Shown: positions 5,279-57,838, numbered from the stretch's first letter. The stretch: 64,000 bases of DNA from Clostridiales bacterium (GCA_036644995.1 JAVXOZ010000005.1:28067-92066); one strand, 5' to 3'. Program-made: numbers and translations. The notes: generated by a model from the sequence alone, not told the origin.

Positions 5279-5541
5279 GAAACTACCTTAAAAGCACCTT
5301 GTAAACCACTTCAGTGCAAACTTAAAATTACCTTAATCCAACCTTGTAAATCACGTCTGTGCAAACAACTACCTTAATCGCACCTTGTAAATCACTTTGT
5401 GCCAACTTAAACTACCTTAATAGCACCTTATAAATCACTTTGTGCCAACTAAAACTACCTTAATAGCACCTTATAAATCACTTTGTGCCAACTAAAACTA
5501 CCTTAGTAGCACCTTGTAAATCACCTTTGTGCCAACTTAAA
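5279..5541. repeat. degenerate tandem array, six units of about 43 nt
   Basis: Unit CTACCTTAATAGCACCTTATAAATCACTTTGTGCCAACTAAAA. The units at 5412-5454 and 5455-5497 are identical. Confidence 0.9.
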
Positions 5542-11519: not shown

Positions 11520-11592
11520 CTTTTACTCCTTATTTACATTATATAGCATAAATACAATTTTTCAAATCCGTAAAAGTGGGTTTAAAATATAA

Positions 11593-11618
11593 AACCAAGG
11601 CTTTTTAAAGCCTTGGTT
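11593..11618 (-). terminator. intrinsic terminator closing structured element copy A
   Basis: 10-bp stem AACCAAGGCT/AGCCTTGGTT, followed by TTTTATATTTT on the minus strand. Confidence 0.75.
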
Positions 11619-11619
11619 A

Positions 11620-11756
11620 GAAGATGTCAGGTTGTTAAGAAAGCCTTAGATTCGGTAAAAACCCCTGAATAGCGACTGTGCAGTGTACATAGATGTACAT
11701 AAGCAGTGGGTGGAAAGTGATTTTGCCGAATATCAAACTTTATCTACAGCCTAACT
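11620..11756 (-). repeat. rod-like structured intergenic element, copy A
   Basis: About 87% identical over ~134 nt to 41775..41906 by hand alignment. Long imperfect terminal inverted repeats, central TGTACA hairpin, no conserved ORF. Confidence 0.8.
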
Positions 11757-11820
11757 GTTATTTCTATAAAATACAGAAAGCACATAATTTAACCACGTTA
11801 AAATGGTTGGATAATTTAGA

Positions 11821-11963
11821 CACGGAAATTTATCCACGGGGTTATAGCCACGGAGTTATCGCCACGGAAATTTAGCCACGGGGTTATAGCCACGGAGTTT
11901 TATCCACGGAGTTTTAGTCACGAGGTTATCGCCACGGGGTTTTATCCACGGGGTTTTAGTCAC
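11821..11963. repeat. degenerate tandem array, about 11 units of 13-14 nt
   Basis: Unit CCACGGRRTTWTMG repeated head to tail, directly 3' of the scfB stop codon. Confidence 0.9.
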
Positions 11964-11968
11964 ATATC

Positions 11969-13339
11969 TTACTCACTTTCAGCCACTTGCACCATAATGG
12001 CACATTCCATACGCTTGCGAAACAGCTCACAGCCATATTCATAAATACCGCTTATGCTCCCTGTGGCATGGTAGGCATTGGCAGGGCAGCCACCGGAACA
12101 ATATAGCCTTGCCCAGCAATCCCCGCACTCCTTACGGGCATATACATTGCACATTTTAAATTCATCACGCAGCTTTGTATTGGTTACCCCATCCCAAATA
12201 TTACCCAAGCTGTACTTGGGGTCATCTACAAATTGATGGCAGGGAAAAAGCTCACCCCAAGGTGTAACCGCCATGTATTCCGTGCCGGAACCACACCCGG
12301 AAATCCGTTTATAAATACAGGGGCCTTGGGTTAAATCTATCATATAATGGTAAAAAGTGAAGCCTTCACCTTTTTTATTGCGTTTTATCATCTCTTTGGC
12401 TAAAATTTCATATTGATTAAAAAGCTCGGGCAAATCCTCAGCTGTTAAAGCATAGGGGTCTTTGGGGTCACAAACCACAGGCTCCATGCTTAATTCCTTA
12501 AAGCCCAAATCCGCCATGTGAAAAATATCATTGGTAAAATCCACATTATTGTGGGTAAAAGTGCCACGCACATAGTAATCCTTACCTTTACGGCGGCGTA
12601 CCAGTTCCTGAAATTTGGGCACAATAGTATCGTAGCTGCCCTTACCTGCAATATTTTTACGCAAATGGTCGTGAACAGATTTTCTGCCATCTAAACTTAA
12701 AACCACATTATGCATTTCTTTATTGGCAAAATCTATTACATCATCATCAATATTCACACCATTGGTGGTGAGGGTAAAGCGGAATTTTTTATCATATTTT
12801 TCTTCTTGATTTCTGCCATAATGCACTAAATCCTTTACCACTTGCCAATTCATCAAAGGTTCGCCGCCGAAAAAATCCACCTCTAAATTGGTGCGTTTTC
12901 CCGAATGCGCAATGAGAAAATCCAAAGCCTGCTTTCCCACATCCAAGGACATAATGCTGCGTTCCCCTTTATATTTGCCTTGACTGGCAAAGCAATATTC
13001 ACAATTTAAATTGCAAGTATGGGCAACATGTAAACAAAGAGCCTTAACCACTGTGCTTCTGTTTTTAAAATCAAAGGCTTTATCTTCATAGGTATCCCCC
13101 ACAAAAAGCTTGCCCTGGTTTTTTAATTCCGCTATATCATCCAAGCATTCCCCAATTTCAGCGGCGGTAATATCGGGATTATCTTGGTATTTATCTAAAA
13201 TTTGGGCAGTTATTTCTTGGGGGGATGTGGTTTGGTATTTAGCAATAATATCGTAAGCCACTTCATCCACAACGTGAACTGCACCGCTGTTAATATCCAA
13301 AACTATATTGTAGCCATTTAATTTATATTGATGAATCAT
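11969..13339 (-). CDS. scfB: radical SAM/SPASM thioether-forming SCIFF peptide maturase
   Basis: 456 aa with CNLNCEYC radical SAM cluster and a C-terminal SPASM Cys pattern. The SCIFF precursor gene lies immediately upstream. Confidence 0.85.
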   Translation of the reverse strand: MIHQYKLNGYNIVLDINSGAVHVVDEVAYDIIAKYQTTSPQEITAQILDKYQDNPDITAAEIGECLDDIAELKNQGKLFVGDTYEDKAFDFKNRSTVVKALCLHVAHTCNLNCEYCFASQGKYKGERSIMSLDVGKQALDFLIAHSGKRTNLEVDFFGGEPLMNWQVVKDLVHYGRNQEEKYDKKFRFTLTTNGVNIDDDVIDFANKEMHNVVLSLDGRKSVHDHLRKNIAGKGSYDTIVPKFQELVRRRKGKDYYVRGTFTHNNVDFTNDIFHMADLGFKELSMEPVVCDPKDPYALTAEDLPELFNQYEILAKEMIKRNKKGEGFTFYHYMIDLTQGPCIYKRISGCGSGTEYMAVTPWGELFPCHQFVDDPKYSLGNIWDGVTNTKLRDEFKMCNVYARKECGDCWARLYCSGGCPANAYHATGSISGIYEYGCELFRKRMECAIMVQVAESE

Positions 13340-13360
13340 TAATTTTCCTCATTTCTCCAT

Positions 13361-13424
13361 GGGTTTAGGTGGGATTTTATTGGGTTTAGGTTGGATTTTG
13401 TTTGGTTTAAATCAGATTTTGTTT
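13361..13424. repeat. three tandem units of about 21 nt between scfA and scfB
   Basis: GGGTTTAGGTGGGATTTTATT, GGGTTTAGGTTGGATTTTGTTT and GGTTTAAATCAGATTTTGTTT. Confidence 0.8.
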
Positions 13425-19330: not shown

Positions 19331-19934
19331 TACATTAATTTACCTAATCAAAAATTTACCTAATCAAAACTGCCTAACAATATATCTAAATAAATCCACC
19401 CTAAAAAATATGTACGAGGAAATTTATCGTAGAAAACTTAACTTAGAAAATCTACCTAAACAAATCTACTTTAGAAAACCTATCTCAGCAAATCTACCTT
19501 AAACAAACTTAACTCAGAAAACCTACCTATCAAATCTACCTCAGAAAACTTACCTTTAGAAAATCTACCTCAGTAAATCTAACTCAACAAATCTATCTCA
19601 ACAAACCTACCTCGGAAAATCTACCTTAGAAAACTTACCTTAACAAACCTACCTCAGAAAATCTATCTCAGAAAATCTACCTAAGTAAATCTACCTCAGT
19701 AAATCTACCTATCAAATCTACCTAACAAATCTACCTAACAAACCTACCTCGGAAAACCTACCTTAGAAAACCTACCTTAGAAAACCTACCTTAGCAAACC
19801 TGCATAAACAAACCTATCTTAAATAAATCTAACTAAAAAAACTTACCTAAGAAATCTTACCTTAGCAAACTTAACTCAGCAAATCTATTTAAACAAATCT
19901 ACATTAATCTACCTTAATTAAATCCACCTAAGCC
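19331..19934. repeat. about 600-bp degenerate tandem array, about 43 units of 13-14 nt
   Basis: Unit AAAYCTACCTYAGN repeated head to tail, filling the whole gap between the M23 stop and the radical SAM start. Confidence 0.95.
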
Positions 19935-27850: not shown

Positions 27851-27985
27851 AACAATAAATATACCTCTGAATTATCAACAATAAGTGTTAAGTCCATGTA
27901 TAAAGCGTGGAAGTATTTACATTTTATCTATATCAGTTTCACACATTCACACTAAATATTTTAAATCTGATTTTATGTTTTAGCA

Positions 27986-28075
27986 AATTAATTTTACAGA
28001 TTTTGGTGTTACAATTTTAATAATTTAACCAATTAATTTTATAGGTTTTGGTGTTTCAATTTTAATTTTTTAACC
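27986..28075. repeat. two tandem 45-nt units
   Basis: AATTAATTTTACAGATTTTGGTGTTACAATTTTAATAATTTAACC is repeated with a few substitutions. Confidence 0.85.
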
Positions 28076-28181
28076 ACAGAGCCAAATTTTCAAGATTTTT
28101 CCACGATATTTGCAATTTTGAATACGCATATGCGGAATTTAAGTAAAACTTAACTGAAGTAAATCTTTAAAATAATAGTTT

Positions 28182-28313
28182 TTATCCAAAGAAGTTGTGG
28201 TTTTTGTCCAAGAAAATTATGATTCTCATTCAACAAAGTTACGGCTATTATCCAAGGAAGTTGTAGCTATTATCCAAGGAAGTTGTGGTTCTTCTCCAAG
28301 GAAGTTTTGGTAA
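28182..28313. repeat. degenerate tandem array, six 22-nt units
   Basis: Unit TTATCCAAGGAAGTTGTGGTTC, directly 3' of the maf stop. Confidence 0.85.
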
Positions 28314-28375
28314 TTTTAAAAGTTAGAAATTAAACAATTAAAAACAATAAAACTTTTCTGCAAAACAATTGGTTT

Positions 28376-37263: not shown

Positions 37264-37452
37264 AGATTACAAACTTACCTAACACAGGAGATTACAAACT
37301 TACCTAACGCAGGAGATTACAAACTTATCTAACGCAACAGATTGAAAACTTACCTAACACAGGAGATTGCAAATTATCGAACGCAACAGATTGAAAACTT
37401 AGCCAACGCAGTATTTTACTAAATTAGCCAAGGCAGGAAATTACTAAGGAGC
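37264..37452. repeat. degenerate tandem array, about seven 25-nt units
   Basis: Unit AGATTACAAACTTACCTAACRCAGG, decaying toward the right end. Confidence 0.85.
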
Positions 37453-37749: not shown

Positions 37750-37980
37750 CCGCAAACAAGCCGCAACTCAGCAAACAAAACACTACGTTAAAGTTGGGTT
37801 TAGGGTTTAGGCTACTACTGTGCAAACAAACCACAACTCACCAAACAAGCCGCAACTCAGCAAACAAACCACTACTCCGCAAACAAAACACTACGTTAAA
37901 GTTGGGTTTAGGGTGTAGGCTACTACTGTGCAAACAAACCGCATTACATCAAACAAGCCACAACACATCAAATAAACCAA
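37750..37980. repeat. CAAACAA-rich repeat region with a 108-nt higher-order period
   Basis: The 62-nt blocks 37771-37832 and 37879-37940 are 61/62 identical and sit within CAAACAARCCRCAACTCA-type short repeats. Confidence 0.85.
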
Positions 37981-37989
37981 ATTACAGTA

Positions 37990-41480: not shown

Positions 41481-41725
41481 ATATAAAAATACATCAATAG
41501 TATAACATTTTGTCCACTTAAAATAAACAGTATTTTAAAAAAGTTTACATAATTTTACATAATTTTTTTATTTAATACTATTTATGACTTTTATTTCTAT
41601 TAATTTTAATTTGCCATTATTTTAACTTTAATTTATATTTAAGGTAATAGTTAAGGATATAGACTAAATATTTTTGGGACAAGGAGTTAAAATATCCGAA
41701 AAACTGCAATTTTAGGGCAAAAAAA

Positions 41726-41743
41726 ACAGCGGTATAAACCGCT
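41726..41743 (-). terminator. intrinsic terminator closing structured element copy B
   Basis: CAGCGGT-loop-ACCGCTG followed by T8 on the minus strand. Confidence 0.75.
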
Positions 41744-41774
41744 GGCAGATTGTTAAAAAACATAGTTTTTTGGC

Positions 41775-41906
41775 AAGATGTTAGGCTGTTAAGAAAGACT
41801 TAGATTCGGTAAAACTCCCTGAACAGCGGCTGTGCAGTGTACCTAAATGTACATAAGCAGTCGATGAGAAGGGATTTTGCCGAATATCAGACTTTATCAA
41901 CAGCCT
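41775..41906 (-). repeat. rod-like structured intergenic element, copy B
   Basis: About 87% identical to copy A. AGGCTGTT/AACAGCCT closing helix. Flanked by near-identical hairpins at 41726-41743 and 41908-41926. Confidence 0.8.
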
Positions 41907-41934
41907 AAACAGCGGTATAAGCCGCCGAGGTGTT

Positions 41935-42092
41935 TGGGGTTTTGGCTGTGAGATGGGGTTTAGCTGTGAGATGGGTTTTATCTACAAAATGGGGGTTTAG
42001 CTGCGAGATGGGGTTTAGCTGTGAGATGGGTTTTATCTACAAAATGGGGTTTGGTTGCAAGATACCATTTATCTACAAATAATGGGTTTTGG
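41935..42092. repeat. degenerate tandem array, about nine 18-19-nt units
   Basis: The units GGGGTTTAGCTGTGAGATG and GGTTTTATCTACAAAATG alternate, giving a ~56-nt higher-order period. Confidence 0.85.
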
Positions 42093-42245
42093 ATAAAGGT
42101 TGAAAACATCTAAACACCCAAAGTAAGAACTTCTTCTGTATTTAGATATAAAAGTTCCAAGTTTGGTTTTAGCTGTTCTCAGCCTTAATCCACAGCCGCA
42201 AAAGCTTTTACGCAATTAGTAAAAGCTTTTTTCATTTTATATTTA

Positions 42246-43472
42246 TTAATTTAATTTTTTCATTTTGCGGTTATTGCCAAATTCTGCCACAGCGGTAAAT
42301 AACACATCCGATGATGAATTTAAAGCGGTTTCGCAGGAATCCTGCACCACGCCTACAATAAAGCCAACACCCACCACCTGCATGGCAATGTCGTTAGGGA
42401 TGCCAAACAAGCTGCAAGCCAAAGGTATTAAAAGCAGAGAACCACCTGCAACACCCGAAGCACCACAAGCACTTATGGCGGAAAGCACACTTAAAATAAT
42501 AGCCGTAGGCATATCTACACTAATGCCCAAAGTGTAGGTTGCCGCCAAGGTAAGGGTGGCAATGGTAACTGCGGCACCTGCCATATTAATGGTAGCACCC
42601 AAGGGTATGGATATGGCATAAGTATCTTTATCCAAGCCCAATTCCTCACAAAGGCTCATATTAACAGGGATATTTGCCGCTGAACTCCGAGTAAAAAACG
42701 CTGTAATACCACTTTGCTTTAAACATTTAAAAACCAAAGGATAAGGATTTTTACGGATATTAATAAATGCGATAAGTGGATTTACCACCAAAGCAATAAA
42801 TGCCATAATCCCAACCAACAATATAATCAATCTGCCATAGGTAAAAAGAATTTTTAAACCACTGGTGGAAATGGCGGTAAAAACCAAACCCATAATACCC
42901 AAAGGTGCAAATTTAATAACCCACCGCACAATTTGAGAAATACCCTCTGCAAAATCGGAGATTACATTTTTTGTGCCATCTGAGGCGAATTTTAAAGCCA
43001 AGCCCAGCAAAATTGCCCAAGCTAAAATTCCAATATAATTGGCATCACCAATGGCACTTATGGGATTATCAACTATTTTAAAAACCAGAGATTGCAAAAC
43101 TTCCAATATACCTTCGGGTGGAGCAACATCCTGAACCCCGGCGGTTAAAACCAATTTTACTTTAAAAATGTTGCTGACAACCACTGCCACTAATCCTGCC
43201 ATAAAAGTGCTGATGGCATAAAGACAAATAATGGATTTCATATTGGTTTTTTGCCCCTGTTTATGTTTGGATATTGCAGCCATAACCAAAAACAAAACCA
43301 AAATTGGGGCTACTGCTTTTAATGCACCCACAAAAAGCTCCCCAAAGATGCCAAGACCCGATAATTGTTTGGGGAAAAATATAGCCAAAACAATACCCAC
43401 TGCCAAACCAATAATAATTTGTTTTACCAAACTTATTTTGTTCCATTTACCCAATAGTTTTTTAAAAAACAT
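42246..43472 (-). CDS. sstT: serine/threonine transporter SstT (DAACS family)
   Basis: 408 aa with SstT-like sequence throughout. Confidence 0.85.
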
Positions 43473-43724
43473 TTATATTTCCTTCCAATACTTATACCGC
43501 ATTTTTTATGTGGCAAAACAAGTATTTTTTTATTATTATCTTCTTTAATTTAATATATCCCAAAATTTTAATTAAACAAACGCACCCTACTTATAATAAC
43601 ACAAAATATCAAATAAGCAATAAAATATTTATGGAAATTTTGGTGCTGTGCCTAAATTTAATTATATTGAGGCAAATTGTAAAAAAATGTAATTTAGCTT
43701 AAAATGATATATTAAAAAAAGCTT

Positions 43725-43818
43725 AAACCCTTATAATCTAAATTAAACCACTGTTAAACCCTTATAATCTAAATTAAACCACTGTTAAACCCTTTATAAT
43801 CTAAATTAAACCACTGTT
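43725..43818. repeat. three near-perfect 31-nt direct repeats upstream of sstT
   Basis: AAACCCTTATAATCTAAATTAAACCACTGTT three times. The third copy has a 1-nt insertion. Confidence 0.9.
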
Positions 43819-43900: not shown

Positions 43901-43920
43901 TCTTTTTTTATTTAAGTTTT

Positions 43921-44186
43921 AATGTGAGATTGGGTTAAGTTGGTATTTTCATTGGGTTTTAACTTAGGATTGGGTTAAATTGGTATTACCATTGGGTTTT
44001 AATGTAGGATTGAGGTAAGTTGGCATTTTCATTGGGTTTTAACTTAGGATTTGGGTAAGTTGGTATTACCATTGGGTTTTAATGTAGGATTGAGGTAAGT
44101 TGGTATTTTCATTGGGTTTTAACTTAGGATTGGGTTAAGTTTGTATCTTCATTGGGTTTTAACTTGAAAATTTAGGCTTGGGTTTT
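43921..44186. repeat. degenerate tandem array, about 6.5 units of about 41 nt
   Basis: Unit AACTTAGGATTGGGTTAAGTTGGTATTTTCATTGGGTTTT with alternating subtypes (81-nt higher order). Lies between the oxidoreductase stop and the terminator. Confidence 0.9.
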
Positions 44187-48073: not shown

Positions 48074-48298
48074 GGGGGTTATGCCCAAGGAACTATGTTA
48101 AAAGAATCTATGTTAAATGAGGTCTATGCCCAAGGGGGTTATGCCCAAGGGGTTCGTGCCCAAGAGGGCTATGTTAAAGAAGTGGGGCTATGTTAAATTG
48201 GTTTGTGCCCAAGTGGAGCTATGTTAAATTAGTACTATCTTAAAGGGGGTCTACGCTAAATTGCTCTACGCTAAAGCCGAAGGATGTCTACACTAAAT
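48074..48298. repeat. degenerate tandem array, about 14 units of 14-17 nt
   Basis: The units GGTTATGCCCAAGG, GCTATGTTAAA and GTCTACGCTAAA drift along the array. Confidence 0.85.
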
Positions 48299-48489
48299 GC
48301 TGTGGTGCGGAATAAAAACGTAATTTTTACCACGGTATAGACCATATATAACAAAAAACCTACTTTCCGATGGGGGTCTGTGCCCAAGTTAAATGGGGTC
48401 TACACTAAATGCTGTGGTGCGGAATAAAAACGTAATTTTTACCACGGTATAGACCATTTTCATATATAACAAAAAACCTACTTTCCGAT
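48286..48489. repeat. two direct repeats of about 86-92 nt separated by 26 nt
   Basis: 48286-48371 and 48398-48489 are nearly identical apart from a 4-nt insertion. Each contains a bulged hairpin GTGGT...AAAAA-CGTAA-TTTTT-ACCAC. Confidence 0.9.
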
Positions 48490-48553: not shown

Positions 48554-48630
48554 TGGTGGAGACAGCTGGATTCGAACCGGCGACCCCCTGCATGTGAGGC
48601 AGGTACTCTAACCTGCTGAGCTATGCCTCC
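48554..48630 (-). tRNA. tRNA-Val (anticodon CAC), CCA encoded
   Basis: Hand-folded cloverleaf: acceptor GGAGGCA/TGTCTCC, anticodon stem CCTGC/GCAGG with loop CTCACAT, T-arm GCCGG-TTCGAAT-CCGGC. 77 nt. Confidence 0.9.
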
Positions 48631-50051: not shown

Positions 50052-50157
50052 TCGGATATATCCCGATATACTCGATGTATCCCGTTGTATCCGATATACT
50101 CGTTGTATCCCGTTGTATCCCGTTGTATCCGATATACTCGATGTATCCGATATAATA
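50052..50157. repeat. degenerate tandem array (units GTATCCCGTT and GTATCCGATATACTCGWT)
   Basis: About 8 units of 10-18 nt between the regulator stop and its terminator. Confidence 0.85.
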
Positions 50158-54096: not shown

Positions 54097-54161
54097 TAAT
54101 ACATTCCTTTTTTAATTTACAAACCGCCAAATATTGGCAAGTGTGATTTTTCATAGCAAAA

Positions 54162-54182
54162 AACGGAGCTTAACGCTCCGTT
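54162..54182 (-). terminator. intrinsic terminator closing structured element copy C
   Basis: AACGGAGC-loop-GCTCCGTT followed by T6 on the minus strand. Confidence 0.75.
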
Positions 54183-54333
54183 GCAGATTGTGAACAAAAT
54201 GAAATTTTGCCTGCACAATTAGGACTTTAAAAAGACTTAACCCGACGAAAATAGTAAGCAGAATTTCGGGGTAAATACACCAAAAAATCGGCAATTAATA
54301 TTTTCGGCGAGCATCAGACTTTTTAATGCCTTA
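54183..54333 (-). repeat. rod-like structured intergenic element, divergent copy C
   Basis: Shares the AAAGACTTA...CG.CGAAAA / TTTTCGGCG...ATCAGACTTT helix, with the same internal mismatches as copies A and B. Bracketed by duplicated hairpins at 54162-54182 and 54334-54354. Confidence 0.65.
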
Positions 54334-54373
54334 AACGGAGCATAAAGCTCCGTTAATCGGTGCATCAAATGAA

Positions 54374-55925: not shown

Positions 55926-56440
55926 TTTTCAATTCCACTTTCGTGATATTTTTCTCAATTTCTCATTTTTGTAATTTATCATATAGTTTAATTATTCAAT
56001 AAAAATATACAAAATCCTTTAAACTTAGGTTAAATTACCTTAAGATAGGCAAAAATTGTGGTTAATCTGTGGTTTTATCACTTTTACTCTTAAATAAGAC
56101 TTGAATATTGTTGCAAAATATATTACTATATAATATGAATGCAGAATTTACCTTTTGCAAAAATCTGAAAATTTATGCCTTTTTAAATACAGGATTTATT
56201 AAAAATTCAAGCCGTGGGTATTTACTTTTAAAAACTTAAAATAAGGAAACATTTAGGCACTTTAAAATTAGGCTGAAAAAATTATACCTTAACAATTTAC
56301 CCACCATGTTTTTCAAGACTACACTTTTTTAAGCATATTAATATAGATTTTACCGTAAAAACCATTTATATATTCAATTTACCGTAAACCAAAAAAACAA
56401 CTTGGTTTACTGCATTAATTATTATGGGGGATTTTTTATA

Positions 56441-57838
56441 ATGAGGGATTTTTTTAAGAATAAAAAAAAGAATATCGCACCTCAACCTCAAGAACAACTA
56501 TATGCTGTTTTTATTCAAAGTAACGACAGAATATATCATTTGGATAAAGAATGTGCAGGTGTGGGCTGTATTACCATCAATAACAAAATAGCCCGTTGCC
56601 AAGCCAGAAAACCATGCCAACTGTGCGCAAAAAACCGTCCTGCGTACAATGCCCCAATAATTTCCCCAGAGGAAAATACCAAGGCATATACACACACACC
56701 CAAACCACCCTTAACACCACCACCTGCCATAGCCAATAAAGAAAATACAGCCACGGCGGATAGCAATATAAATACGCCATTATCACCTTTAAATGCCCAA
56801 GCTGACCTTGGTGTAAACCCTACCCTTGAGCCAAGCCCAGAAGCTGAAAATTTAGATATGCCGCCCTTAGCTCAAGAAGCCGCAGCCAAAAATCCCCAAA
56901 TGGAACTTAATGATATTATCGCCCCAAAAGAGCAAGCCATACCATCGGTAATTTTAAATAATGAAATAAATCCAGATAATGGCATTGCATCGGATAATAT
57001 TACCATTGCAGAAAATAACAGCGAAAATAGCAATATCGAGGAAAAAAACAGTCTTATCCAAGATATAAAAAAAGAAGATATAGAAAAACTTTTTCCTTTA
57101 CCCACAGAAAATATTGAAGATGAAAAACCTCTATCTTGGGAATCTCTTAAAGAAATGCCCCTTGCTTCCAGTACCGAAGAAGTTGCAGAAAAAATTGTAA
57201 GTGATGAGGGTGAAATTTCAGGGAATATCTCTGAAAACATTGAAGATGAAAAACCCCTATCTTGGGAATCACTTAAGGTAATGCCCCTTAACCCCAACAC
57301 CGAAGAAGTTGCGGAAAAAATTGTAAGTGACGAGGGTGAAATTTCAGCCAATATCTCTGAAAATATTGAAGATGAAAAACCATCGGTATCGCCACTGGTT
57401 TTTAACAGCACCCAAGCCACGGCAATGGCTGAGGAAAATATAACTAACACAGAAACACCAATGCCAAACCCGATAATGGCACCGATTTCCTCATCTATAT
57501 CCACAGATGAAAATGACTTAAACCCCAAAAATCAAGGCACAAATATACCGATATTAACCAGAGTACCCCTTACACCTTTGCTGGAAACACAAGAACCCTT
57601 GACTGAACATCACCATACAGAACCAAAAAAACAAAAAAAAACCGGTAAAACCCAAAACTTAGTATTTGGTAAATTAGACAAGGTTTCCATTGTTGGCATC
57701 GCCATATTTACACTGACTATTTTGGTTATAATTGCCAATTTTGCCACAGGTGGCATAGTGCCCAAAGATAAAGTAGATGCCTTGAGCTGCAATACAGAAA
57801 TATCTTGTAATATTGATAACTATGATTTAAAATTTTAA
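56441..57838 (+). CDS. hypothetical protein: N-terminal Cys motif, ~340-aa acidic disordered region with 42-aa repeats, C-terminal TM
   Basis: ATG 56441 follows GGGGGA. YHLDKEC..C...C..C motif. 126-nt tandem repeats at 57107-57382. TM segment VSIVGIAIFTLTILVIIANFA. Confidence 0.7.
   Translation: MRDFFKNKKKNIAPQPQEQLYAVFIQSNDRIYHLDKECAGVGCITINNKIARCQARKPCQLCAKNRPAYNAPIISPEENTKAYTHTPKPPLTPPPAIANKENTATADSNINTPLSPLNAQADLGVNPTLEPSPEAENLDMPPLAQEAAAKNPQMELNDIIAPKEQAIPSVILNNEINPDNGIASDNITIAENNSENSNIEEKNSLIQDIKKEDIEKLFPLPTENIEDEKPLSWESLKEMPLASSTEEVAEKIVSDEGEISGNISENIEDEKPLSWESLKVMPLNPNTEEVAEKIVSDEGEISANISENIEDEKPSVSPLVFNSTQATAMAEENITNTETPMPNPIMAPISSSISTDENDLNPKNQGTNIPILTRVPLTPLLETQEPLTEHHHTEPKKQKKTGKTQNLVFGKLDKVSIVGIAIFTLTILVIIANFATGGIVPKDKVDALSCNTEISCNIDNYDLKF

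What the first reader, a model, noticed from the sequence alone, without database searches (positions are those of the whole stretch)
11582..11810. Rod-like structured element family, copy A (downstream of the SCIFF maturase)
The core at 11620-11756 is about 87% identical over ~134 nt to 41775-41906, about 30 kb away, by hand alignment. Neither copy shares an intact ORF on either strand: the only ATG frames are interrupted by stops in one copy or the other. The sequence folds as a long imperfect hairpin. The outer helix is AGGTTGT/ACAGCCT and the long helix is CTTAGATTCGGTAAAA / TTTTGCCGAATATCA. Some substitutions between copies preserve pairing, for example U-G in A against C-G in B in the closing helix, and CGACTG/CAGTGG against CGGCTG/CAGTCG internally. 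The apex is a TGTACA-N4-TGTACA hairpin. On the minus strand the element follows the scfB stop and a repeat array, and ends at a strong terminator (11593-11618). The features suggest a transcribed 3'-UTR/sRNA family or a MITE-like element that targets terminators. I do not recognise it as a known family.
Basis: seen in the sequence. Interest (0 to 1): 0.75.

Follow-up and report, generated by a model that had tools for sequence, protein, structure and literature searches.

The report
Palindromic repeat inserted at gene terminators
The two look-alike 134-base hairpin sequences are real, and with a third, older copy they look like relics of a small non-coding jumping element that landed on transcription terminators and duplicated the terminator hairpin, not a conserved structured RNA.

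Summary
Copies A (11621-11754) and B (41775-41908) are 88% identical over 134 nt without gaps. They are the only dispersed repeat of at least 100 nt in the window. Both fold as long imperfect hairpins. No Rfam family matches.

I found a third, diverged member, C (54183-54332), downstream of rpmE. B and C show that the full unit is about 150-162 nt: GCAGATTGT, a mini-hairpin, then the rod.

B and C are each flanked by a direct duplication of their own host terminator hairpin (19/21 and 20/22 nt). Each duplicated hairpin occurs nowhere else in the window. This looks like a target-site duplication spanning a whole intrinsic terminator.

There is no evidence of selection on RNA structure:
- A and B show no compensatory changes, and 6 of 9 substitutions at paired positions break pairs.
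- The better-folding strand differs between B and C.
- The repeat carries no promoter of its own.

The element was not found in representative genomes, JGI metagenomes, IMG/VR, plasmids or phages. All same-species MAGs carry all three copies, so no empty site was seen.

Verdict: a relic MITE/REPIN-like element that targets terminators and is carried passively in 3' UTRs. The hairpin-length duplication is the unusual feature. Interest is moderate.

The parts
11621..11754 (+). Copy A: the rod (imperfect palindrome) only. It lacks the 30-nt 5' part seen in B and C. It is the more decayed hairpin (-41 kcal/mol on +, -31 on -).
11593..11618 (-). Strong intrinsic terminator (11-bp stem followed by a T-run) 2 nt from the left end of copy A. 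A TTGAAA-16-TATAAT promoter for the HAD hydrolase gene follows it at 11565-11538.
11755..11776 (.). AT-rich hairpin CTGTTATTTCTATAAAATACAG abutting the right end of copy A. It sits where the distal hairpin copy sits in B and C, but no duplicate was found on the other side of A.
   Evidence: read; flank comparison
11813..11963 (.). 14-nt tandem array between the scfB stop and copy A. It is a neighbour, not part of the repeated unit. Copy C has no array.
41745..41906 (+). Copy B, full element (162 nt). It consists of GCAGATTGT plus a mini-hairpin (41745-41774), then the rod (41775-41906). It is a near-perfect palindrome (-57 kcal/mol for the rod on the + strand).
   Evidence: (I1)
41724..41744 (+). 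Left copy of the duplicated target, AAACAGCGGTATAAACCGCTG. On the minus strand it is the working terminator CAGCGGTTTATACCGCTG followed by T8.
41907..41927 (+). Right copy of the duplicated target, AAACAGCGGTATAAGCCGCCG (19/21 identical to the left copy). On the minus strand it is a hairpin followed by only TTT and then the element.
54183..54332 (+). Copy C (150 nt), a diverged family member between the rpmE stop (54374) and the DUF1385 gene start (54096). It consists of GCAGATTGT plus a mini-hairpin, then a rod.
   Evidence: (z = 9 against B)
54161..54182 (+). Left copy of the duplicated target at C, AAACGGAGCTTAACGCTCCGTT. On the minus strand it is a predicted terminator followed by T6.
54333..54354 (+). 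Right copy of the duplicated target at C, AAACGGAGCATAAAGCTCCGTT (20/22). Both differences are in the loop. It lies 20 nt downstream of the rpmE stop.
   Evidence: (I8)
42077..42200 (.). Candidate fourth, degenerate member (D). It is a long hairpin between the sstT-proximal hairpin (42200-42230) and the array next to B. By hand count, its right end matches the right end of B at 16 of 20 positions. It is not significant by sequence alone.
   Evidence: 23.7 bits; z -7.2; z 3.6; nhmmer E = 22

Best explanation
These are relics of a small, non-coding, non-autonomous mobile element of the MITE/REPIN kind. It is about 150-162 nt long and consists of a 30-nt 5' part (GCAGATTGT plus a mini-hairpin) followed by a rod-like imperfect palindrome of about 130 nt.

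The element integrated at the intrinsic terminators of host genes, always in the same orientation relative to the terminator. Read on the gene's strand, it entered 3 nt into the T-tract. The hairpin plus TTT (21-22 nt) was duplicated. The upstream copy is therefore left with a crippled T-tract, and an intact terminator is rebuilt at the far end of the element.

Shown: three homologous copies, their position and orientation, the locus-specific flanking duplications at two of them, the absence of coding capacity, and the absence of RNA covariation.

Inferred:
- The duplications are target-site duplications, made by cuts on either side of the hairpin. One possibility is a short stagger across the base of an extruded hairpin or cruciform.
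- The element is now inactive and evolves roughly neutrally. A and B differ by 12%, and the flanking duplicates by about 9%.
- It is co-transcribed passively as part of the 3' UTR of scfAB, sstT and rpmE, between a weakened and an intact terminator.

The mobilising enzyme is unknown.
For: Family:
- A and B are 88% identical over 134 nt.
- B and C are similar over about 200 nt in the same orientation: Smith-Waterman score 54 against 22 +/- 3.6 (maximum 40) for 300 mononucleotide shuffles.
- The exact words GCAGATTGT, AAAGACTTA and ATCAGACTTT occur on the + strand of the window only at B and C, in the same order and with similar spacing.

Flanking duplications:
- B has 19/21 identical bases (41724-41744 and 41907-41927). 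C has 20/22 (54161-54182 and 54333-54354).
- These sit exactly at the element boundaries. Each sequence is found nowhere else in the window, and 0 matches are expected by chance.
- In a scan of the whole window for 21-mers at least 19/21 identical and 120-260 nt apart, these are the only pairs outside tandem arrays and coding regions.
- The left copies are predicted minus-strand terminators.

Non-coding and not selected as RNA:
- No frame is shared with a start codon, and the shared open frame has 9 of 38 residues changed.
- No pair has changes on both sides, and 6 of 9 paired-site substitutions between A and B break pairs.
- With B's structure mapped onto C, double changes are no more frequent than in slid controls.
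- The preferred strand differs: B folds at -68.8 kcal/mol on + and -51.1 on -. C folds at -30.8 on + and -41.9 on -.

Conservation pattern: between B and C, the rod base and the 5' end are conserved and the apical part is not, as for transposon ends.

Lineage-specific: relatives with about 80% identical ScfB have 118-187-nt gaps after scfB and no element.
Against: - Only three (perhaps four) copies were seen, in about 81 kb of this genome.
- No empty site was found. All MAGs and Logan contigs of the species (at least 99.2% identity at the one locus compared) carry A, B and C.
- No autonomous partner or transposase, integrase or reverse transcriptase is visible in the window or its flanks.
- Copy A has neither the 5' part nor a detectable flanking duplication.
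- From my own knowledge, a 21-22-nt duplication is far longer than the usual 2-14 bp of bacterial transposons.
- The full element lacks symmetric terminal inverted repeats.
- Two exact-pattern scans of GTDB representative genomes and one of JGI metagenomes found no further copies. This points either to a very low copy number or to the species being absent from those collections.
Confidence: 0.55

Rival explanations
1. A family of functional structured RNAs. These would be either a cis-acting 3'-UTR hairpin that stabilises or processes the upstream mRNA, or a 3'-UTR-derived sRNA released between the two hairpins. The rod would be kept by selection.
For: - All three copies lie in the same orientation between a gene's stop codon and a strong terminator on the gene's strand.
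- The folds are much more stable than shuffles.
- C remains a rod although its apical sequence has diverged from B.
- The stems of both flanking hairpin copies are intact. Of the 4 substitutions between the duplicates, 3 fall in loops and the fourth keeps a G-U pair on the minus strand (read).
Against: - No compensatory change was found, and 6 of 9 paired-site differences between A and B break pairs.
- Double changes between B and C do not exceed the slid controls.
- The preferred strand is inconsistent between copies.
- There is no conserved promoter and no Rfam hit.
- The A-B divergence (12%) is similar to that of the flanking duplicates (about 9%), as expected for neutral decay.
- From my own knowledge, palindromy can be maintained by template-switch correction without selection.
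Confidence: 0.15
2. The same element, but mobilised through RNA. A plus-sense transcript of the element with a short A-tail would be reverse-transcribed from a nick in the terminator's T-tract (target-primed, SINE-like). It might borrow the machinery of a terminator-seeking class C group II intron or another reverse transcriptase.
For: - The junction is hairpin + TTT | element on the minus strand at B and C, and TT | element at A. On the plus strand the element is followed by AAA and the duplication starts with A's.
- The duplication length varies (21 and 22 nt).
- Copy A lacks exactly the 5' 30 nt, as a 5'-truncated retro-copy would.
- From my own knowledge, class C group II introns insert a few nucleotides after terminator stems.
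Against: - No reverse transcriptase or intron is present in the window or its flanks.
- Rfam finds no group II intron domains.
- Copy A has no flanking duplication.
- As far as I know, no bacterial precedent exists for SINE-like elements.
- The AAA is also present in the left copy of the duplication, so it belongs to the target and need not be a tail.
Confidence: 0.1
3. Not mobile. The copies would arise from ectopic recombination or gene conversion and local duplication in a genome whose intergenic regions are unusually prone to slippage and template switching. The flanking hairpin copies would be local tandem duplications.
For: - The window holds at least 11 intergenic tandem arrays, so local duplication is rampant.
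- Copy A shares only the rod with B and has no flanking duplication.
- No empty site and no transposase were seen.
Against: - Three unlinked loci carry homologous sequence with sharp common boundaries (GCAGATTGT on one side, GCCT on the other) in unrelated flanks.
- The duplication brackets exactly the shared sequence at two independent loci. Local duplication does not predict this.
Confidence: 0.1
4. A DNA-level functional site, for example a folded single-strand recombination site of the integron attC type, or a protein-binding palindrome.
For: - The terminal helix contains GTTAGGC ... GCCTAAC, which fits the attC core words GTTRRRY and RYYYAAC (read).
- It is an imperfect palindrome of attC-like length lying downstream of genes.
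Against: - The order of the two words is reversed. Here it is 5'-GTTRRRY...RYYYAAC-3', whereas attC has RYYYAAC first. The attC order comes from my own knowledge.
- In A the left word reads GTCAGGT.
- The flanking genes are housekeeping genes (scfB, sstT, rpmE), not cassettes.
- No integrase is nearby.
Confidence: 0.03

Closest known systems
Bacterial MITEs and ERIC-type palindromic intergenic repeats (Correia/CREE, ERIC/IRU, RUP, bcr1 of the Bacillus cereus group); reviewed in PMC10969869, PMC3184786 and PMC2229807, of which only PMC10969869 was opened
   Same: It is small (about 130-160 nt), non-coding, intergenic and dispersed. It is an imperfect palindrome that would fold as a long hairpin when co-transcribed. 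It is bracketed by direct duplications of the target, and its ends are better conserved than its interior.
   Different: - The duplication is 21-22 nt and consists of a whole terminator hairpin, not the usual 2-10 bp.
- The full element is asymmetric, with a 30-nt 5' part that has no inverted partner.
- Very few copies were seen.
- No parent IS is known, and no sequence similarity to any library searched was found.
REPINs (REP doublets forming hairpins, mobilised by RAYT transposases)
   Same: Two inverted conserved blocks of about 25 nt flank a variable centre and form a rod of about 100-130 nt. The element lies in extragenic positions near the 3' ends of genes.
   Different: - From my own knowledge, REPINs have a GTAG motif. 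It is not conserved here (CTGTAG in A, CTGTTG in B).
- Each arm is not itself a G+C-rich palindrome.
- REPINs are not known to give target duplications.
- REPINs are described mainly in Proteobacteria at hundreds of copies.
- The presence of a RAYT gene could not be tested.
[quoted passage not shown]
   Same: It is a small interspersed repeat in a Gram-positive genome that is associated with terminator-like hairpins.
   Different: In SPRITE the terminator-like hairpin is part of the repeated sequence. Here the hairpins differ from locus to locus and are duplicated host sequence.
Class C (IIC) bacterial group II introns (target choice only; from my own knowledge)
   Same: The insertion point is a few nucleotides (TTT) downstream of an intrinsic terminator stem, in one orientation. 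Such a site does little harm to the host gene.
   Different: Rfam finds no intron domains. The element is only about 160 nt and has no reverse transcriptase. Intron retrohoming makes no target duplication.
MITE with an internal minisatellite in Porphyromonas gingivalis (PMC4596501, title and abstract only)
   Same: A small mobile repeat is found together with a tandem array of short units.
   Different: Here the arrays lie outside the duplicated boundaries. They differ in unit between loci, are absent at copy C, and occur at many loci that have no element.

Membership tests
Any Rfam 15 RNA family (including 6S RNA, group II intron, T-box and known Firmicutes sRNAs) | A match to the family covariance model at or near the gathering score | tested here: not met
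   The whole window at gathering threshold gives only one tRNA. Both loci at E <= 10 give only sub-threshold chance hits of 13-23 bits against cut-offs of 45-229.
Structured RNA under selection (generic) | Base pairs maintained by compensatory changes beyond controls | tested here: not met
   None of the 38 consensus pairs has changes on both sides. Between A and B, 3 substitutions at paired positions keep the pair and 6 break it. B's structure mapped onto C gives 6 double changes against 8-11 in slid controls. Only three sequences are available, so power is low.
MITE | Terminal inverted repeats | tested here: inconclusive
   The rod arms are inverted repeats (34 nt, 82% complementary in B, I1). 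The full element in B and C starts with GCAGATTGT, which has no inverted partner at the other end.
MITE | Direct target-site duplication flanking each copy | tested here: met
   B has 19/21 and C has 20/22 identical bases. The duplications are locus-specific and lie at the exact boundaries. None was found at A. The length (21-22 nt, a whole hairpin) is atypical.
MITE | Multiple dispersed copies; no coding capacity | tested here: met
   Three copies were found in 64 kb, and none in about 17 kb of extra flank. There is no shared ORF with a start codon. The genome-wide copy number is unknown.
MITE | A parent IS or transposase with matching ends; presence/absence polymorphism | not testable with these tools
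No transposase is present in the window or flanks. All MAGs of the species carry all copies.
REPIN/RAYT system | A conserved GTAG next to a palindromic REP, and a RAYT gene in the genome | tested here: not met
   GTAG is present only in A (CTGTAGAT) and not in B (CTGTTGAT) or C. The RAYT gene could not be tested.
Integron attC site | 5'-RYYYAAC ... GTTRRRY-3' core order, cassette context, and intI | tested here: not met
   The words are present but in the reverse order on both strands (GTTAGGC ... GCCTAAC). The context is housekeeping genes, and no integrase is present.
Group II intron (class C) or a derivative | Domain V/VI RNA structure; GUGYG 5' end | tested here: not met
   Rfam gives no intron hit. 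The minus-strand 5' end is AGGCUGU. Only the target preference resembles this family.
Fragment of a larger IS element | Adjacent transposase remnants, or similarity to plasmid- or phage-borne IS copies | tested here: not met
   The flanks are arrays, terminators and housekeeping genes. blastn finds no match in 72,556 plasmids or 50,697 phage records.

The most novel reading that the evidence does not exclude
A previously undescribed kind of non-autonomous mobile element that recognises intrinsic terminators by their structure. It would integrate with cuts on either side of the hairpin, so that the entire terminator is duplicated and the host gene keeps a working terminator. That would imply an unknown structure-specific transposase, recombinase or reverse-transcriptase pathway in an uncultured Clostridia lineage. 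It might also be linked to this genome's unusual abundance of intergenic tandem arrays.
Probability: 0.2. Interest if true: 0.7.

Novelty: new variant of a known kind. Interest (0 to 1): 0.4.

Why it matters
If the flanking duplications are true target-site duplications, this element integrates at terminators in a way that copies the whole hairpin. That is a harm-minimising strategy, like that of class C group II introns but reached by a different route. It would point to an enzyme that reads DNA or RNA hairpin structure and not sequence.

It also gives a concrete example of how 3' UTRs in Firmicutes can acquire long hairpins and tandem terminators, which are raw material for 3'-UTR-derived sRNAs.

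If the duplications are not target-site duplications, this is an ordinary low-copy palindromic intergenic repeat in one uncultured species. Its main practical relevance would then be as a cause of assembly breaks.

Tried and rejected
Searches for further copies:
1. Exact-pattern scans were run with both arms of the long helix, the left arm alone, and B/C-conserved words. They covered GTDB representative genomes, JGI metagenomes and IMG/VR. Every hit was a chance match or an unrelated palindrome when checked by blastn or nhmmer.
2. I used the protein database as an index of spurious ORFs, querying it with six-frame pseudo-peptides of A and B. Nothing was found at E <= 10.
3. I fetched about 10 kb to the left and about 7 kb to the right of the window and several strain contigs. 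No new copies were found.
4. blastn found no match in plasmid or phage collections.

Empty-site test: contigs were fetched through ScfB, SstT, the HAD hydrolase, the GDPD protein and DUF1385. All same-species contigs carry the copies or break inside them. The nearest relatives (about 80% ScfB identity) are too distant. Their downstream genes differ and their gaps are short.

Readings considered and rejected:
- Riboswitch or leader of the downstream gene. Rejected because a terminator and then an 11/12 sigma-70-type promoter separate A from the HAD gene.
- Coding small protein.
- 6S RNA, retron, type III antitoxin, attC and group II intron. See the membership tests.
- A dispersed REP-like family of flanking hairpins. 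Rejected because each hairpin is unique to its locus.
- An obligatory link to the tandem arrays. Rejected because C has no array and most arrays have no element.

A paper search for the source MAGs and sequencing runs found nothing.

Full report
**Observation**

- Window 11621-11754 and 41775-41908 align without gaps at 118/134 identical bases (88%).
- They form the only dispersed direct repeat of at least 100 nt in the 64-kb window (family D9).
- Each folds as a long imperfect hairpin, much more stable than dinucleotide shuffles. A gives -42.5 kcal/mol on the + strand and -34.8 on the - strand (z about -3.5). B gives -57.3 and -48.1 (z -7.6 and -5.9).
- Rfam 15 gives only one tRNA elsewhere in the window at gathering threshold. 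At E <= 10 it gives only sub-threshold noise at both loci.

**Context of A and B**

All flanking genes are on the minus strand.

For A, the order on that strand is:
1. scfA and scfB (stop at 11969).
2. A 14-nt tandem array (11963-11813).
3. An AT-rich hairpin.
4. The rod.
5. A strong intrinsic terminator (11618-11593).
6. A TTGAAA-16-TATAAT promoter, then the HAD hydrolase gene.

The element is therefore not a leader of the downstream gene.

For B, the order is:
1. sstT (stop at 42246).
2. A hairpin, another long hairpin (D) and an 18-nt array.
3. A hairpin, then the rod.
4. A 30-nt spacer.
5. A strong terminator, CAGCGGTTTATACCGCTG followed by T8.

**No evidence for RNA-level selection**

A and B differ at 16 positions.
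- Seven of these are unpaired in B's fold.
- Of the nine paired positions, three stay paired through G-U and six are broken in A. None is compensated.
- B is a near-perfect palindrome and A is a decayed one. That is the pattern of neutral decay, not of a conserved RNA.
- Frames of about 30-38 codons are open in both copies. The longest has no start codon in A and 9 of 38 residues changed, so the element is non-coding.

**A third copy redefines the unit**

A covariance model built from A and B, run without filters on the window, gave weak hits at 54213-54334 and 42077-42200.

The first hit is a genuine relative (copy C).
- With flanks, B and C give a Smith-Waterman score of 54, against 22 +/- 3.6 (maximum 40) for 300 mononucleotide shuffles.
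- The exact words GCAGATTGT, AAAGACTTA and ATCAGACTTT occur on the + strand of the window only at B and C. They appear in the same order and with similar spacing: 49 and 92 nt in B, 48 and 82 nt in C.

C lies between the rpmE stop (54374) and the DUF1385 gene. It has the same orientation relative to its minus-strand neighbours as A and B.

B and C show that the full element starts with GCAGATTGT plus a small hairpin of about 30 nt. This is followed by the rod, which ends in ...GCCT(T). B spans 41745-41906 and C spans 54183-54332. A has only the rod.

Between B and C, the conserved parts are the 5' end and the basal 25 nt or so of each rod arm. The apical part differs, although it is still palindromic. 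C folds better on the minus strand and B on the plus strand, so the two copies show no consistent G-U strand signature.

**Terminator duplications**

At both B and C, the element is bracketed by a direct repeat that is the host terminator hairpin.
- B: AAACAGCGGTATAAACCGCTG (41724-41744) and AAACAGCGGTATAAGCCGCCG (41907-41927), 19/21 identical.
- C: AAACGGAGCTTAACGCTCCGTT (54161-54182) and AAACGGAGCATAAAGCTCCGTT (54333-54354), 20/22 identical.

Each sequence occurs only at its own locus, with 0 matches expected by chance. In a whole-window scan for such pairs, these are the only ones outside tandem arrays and coding regions.

Read on the gene strand, the arrangement is:

gene - [hairpin-TTT] - element - [hairpin-TTTTTT(TT)]

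This is what an insertion 3 nt into the T-tract would give if the hairpin plus TTT were duplicated. The proximal copy loses most of its T-tract, and an intact terminator is restored distally.

Three of the four substitutions between the duplicates are in loops. The fourth keeps a G-U pair on the minus strand.

Copy A has a hairpin directly at its right end and a terminator at its left end, but I could not detect a duplication there. A may be 5'-truncated, or it may have been rearranged later.

**Distribution**

- Two exact-pattern scans of GTDB representative genomes, one of JGI metagenomes and four of IMG/VR returned only chance matches.
- blastn against plasmid and phage collections found nothing.
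- Six-frame pseudo-peptides found no spurious ORFs in the 5.8-billion-protein set.
- The window belongs to an uncultured 'Clostridiales bacterium' known from a set of MAGs (GCA_0366...) and Logan assemblies. At the one locus compared, the rpmE/DUF1385 region, these are at least 99.2% identical to the window. All of them carry A, B and C or break inside them, so no empty site was seen.
- The nearest ScfB relatives are only about 80% identical. They have short gaps and no element.
- No transposase, integrase or reverse transcriptase is encoded in the window or its flanks.

**Interpretation**

The best-supported reading is a relic non-autonomous mobile element of the MITE/REPIN kind that targeted intrinsic terminators. 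It is now carried passively in the 3' UTRs of scfAB, sstT and rpmE.

The unusual feature is that the duplication spans a whole hairpin. I infer cuts on either side of the hairpin, for example a short stagger across the base of an extruded hairpin. This is not shown.

A reverse-transcription route from a nick in the T-tract would also fit the junctions and the 5'-truncated copy A, but it has no supporting gene.

A functional structured RNA cannot be excluded with three sequences. Nothing positive supports it.

Because two of three copies carry the signature and no census of the genome was possible, my confidence in the mobile-element reading is moderate (0.55).

**Comparison with known families**

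The element resembles Correia, ERIC, bcr1 and RUP-type MITEs and REPINs in size, palindromy, intergenic location and end conservation.

It differs from them in three ways:
- the 21-22-nt hairpin duplication;
- the asymmetric 5' part;
- the low copy number seen.

It shares its target preference with class C group II introns but none of their RNA domains. It contains attC-like core words, but in reversed order and without any integron context. It is best filed as a new variant of a known kind.

Noticed in passing
window 5280-5541, 11813-11963, 13360-13424, 19430-19897, 27979-28076, 28178-28315, 37264-37444, 37752-37986, 41935-42080, 43723-43818, 43916-44165, 50055-50154: The genome is unusually rich in intergenic tandem arrays. 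Each has its own unit (periods of 10-43 nt, up to 31 copies). Nearly all start just downstream of a stop codon in co-directional gene pairs, and one lies between scfA and scfB. The gap between the Spore_III_AB and SpoIIIAC genes of the spoIIIA operon differs between same-species MAGs (214-456 nt), so some arrays are probably variable in copy number. Relatives with 80% ScfB identity lack them. I have no explanation for this.
   Followed up: partly
window 42077-42200 (next to hairpin 42200-42230): A further long hairpin (D; -54.9 kcal/mol with its neighbour, z -7.2) lies between sstT and the array next to B. It scores 23.7 bits with the A/B model. By hand count, its right end is 16/20 identical to the right end of B. 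It is not significant by sequence alone (nhmmer E = 22). The units of the adjacent array (GGTTTAGCTGT...) resemble D's right arm (hand comparison), so the array may have grown out of this element.
   Followed up: partly
window 11685-11703; loci L006, L009, L010 (ends), L049, L050 (starts): Five independent contigs (Logan assemblies and one MAG contig) break at the apex of copy A. L006 and L049 overlap by 20 nt (CTTATGTACATCTATGTACA). The shared words between A and B are too short for typical k-mer assembly to explain this (my inference). It may reflect a population polymorphism at the apex.
   Followed up: partly
window 48265-48345 and 48377-48457: An 81-nt sequence is repeated at 88% identity 112 nt apart, about 100 nt from the single tRNA gene (48557-48630, minus strand), inside an 846-nt gap. 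Further partial repeats were seen at 48240/48389 and 48352/48515.
   Followed up: no
window 56402-57838 (+), repeat at 57107-57381: A 478-aa ORF with no Pfam match contains a 126-nt tandem repeat (2.2 copies, 89%) in frame.
   Followed up: no
window 42200-42230 compared with the end of L031: The loop of the hairpin 16 nt after the sstT stop differs between strains (TAATTGC here, CTTTGC in GCA_036652095.1), while the stem is kept as far as that contig runs.
   Followed up: no
L001 8740-8990 and L002 1480-1730 (metagenomes Ga0123357 / Ga0123355): An unrelated, almost perfect palindrome with arms of at least 125 nt happens to contain the same GATTCGGTAAAA/TTTTGCCGAAT words. It shows no other similarity to the element. 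It may be a foldback element or an assembly artefact.
   Followed up: no
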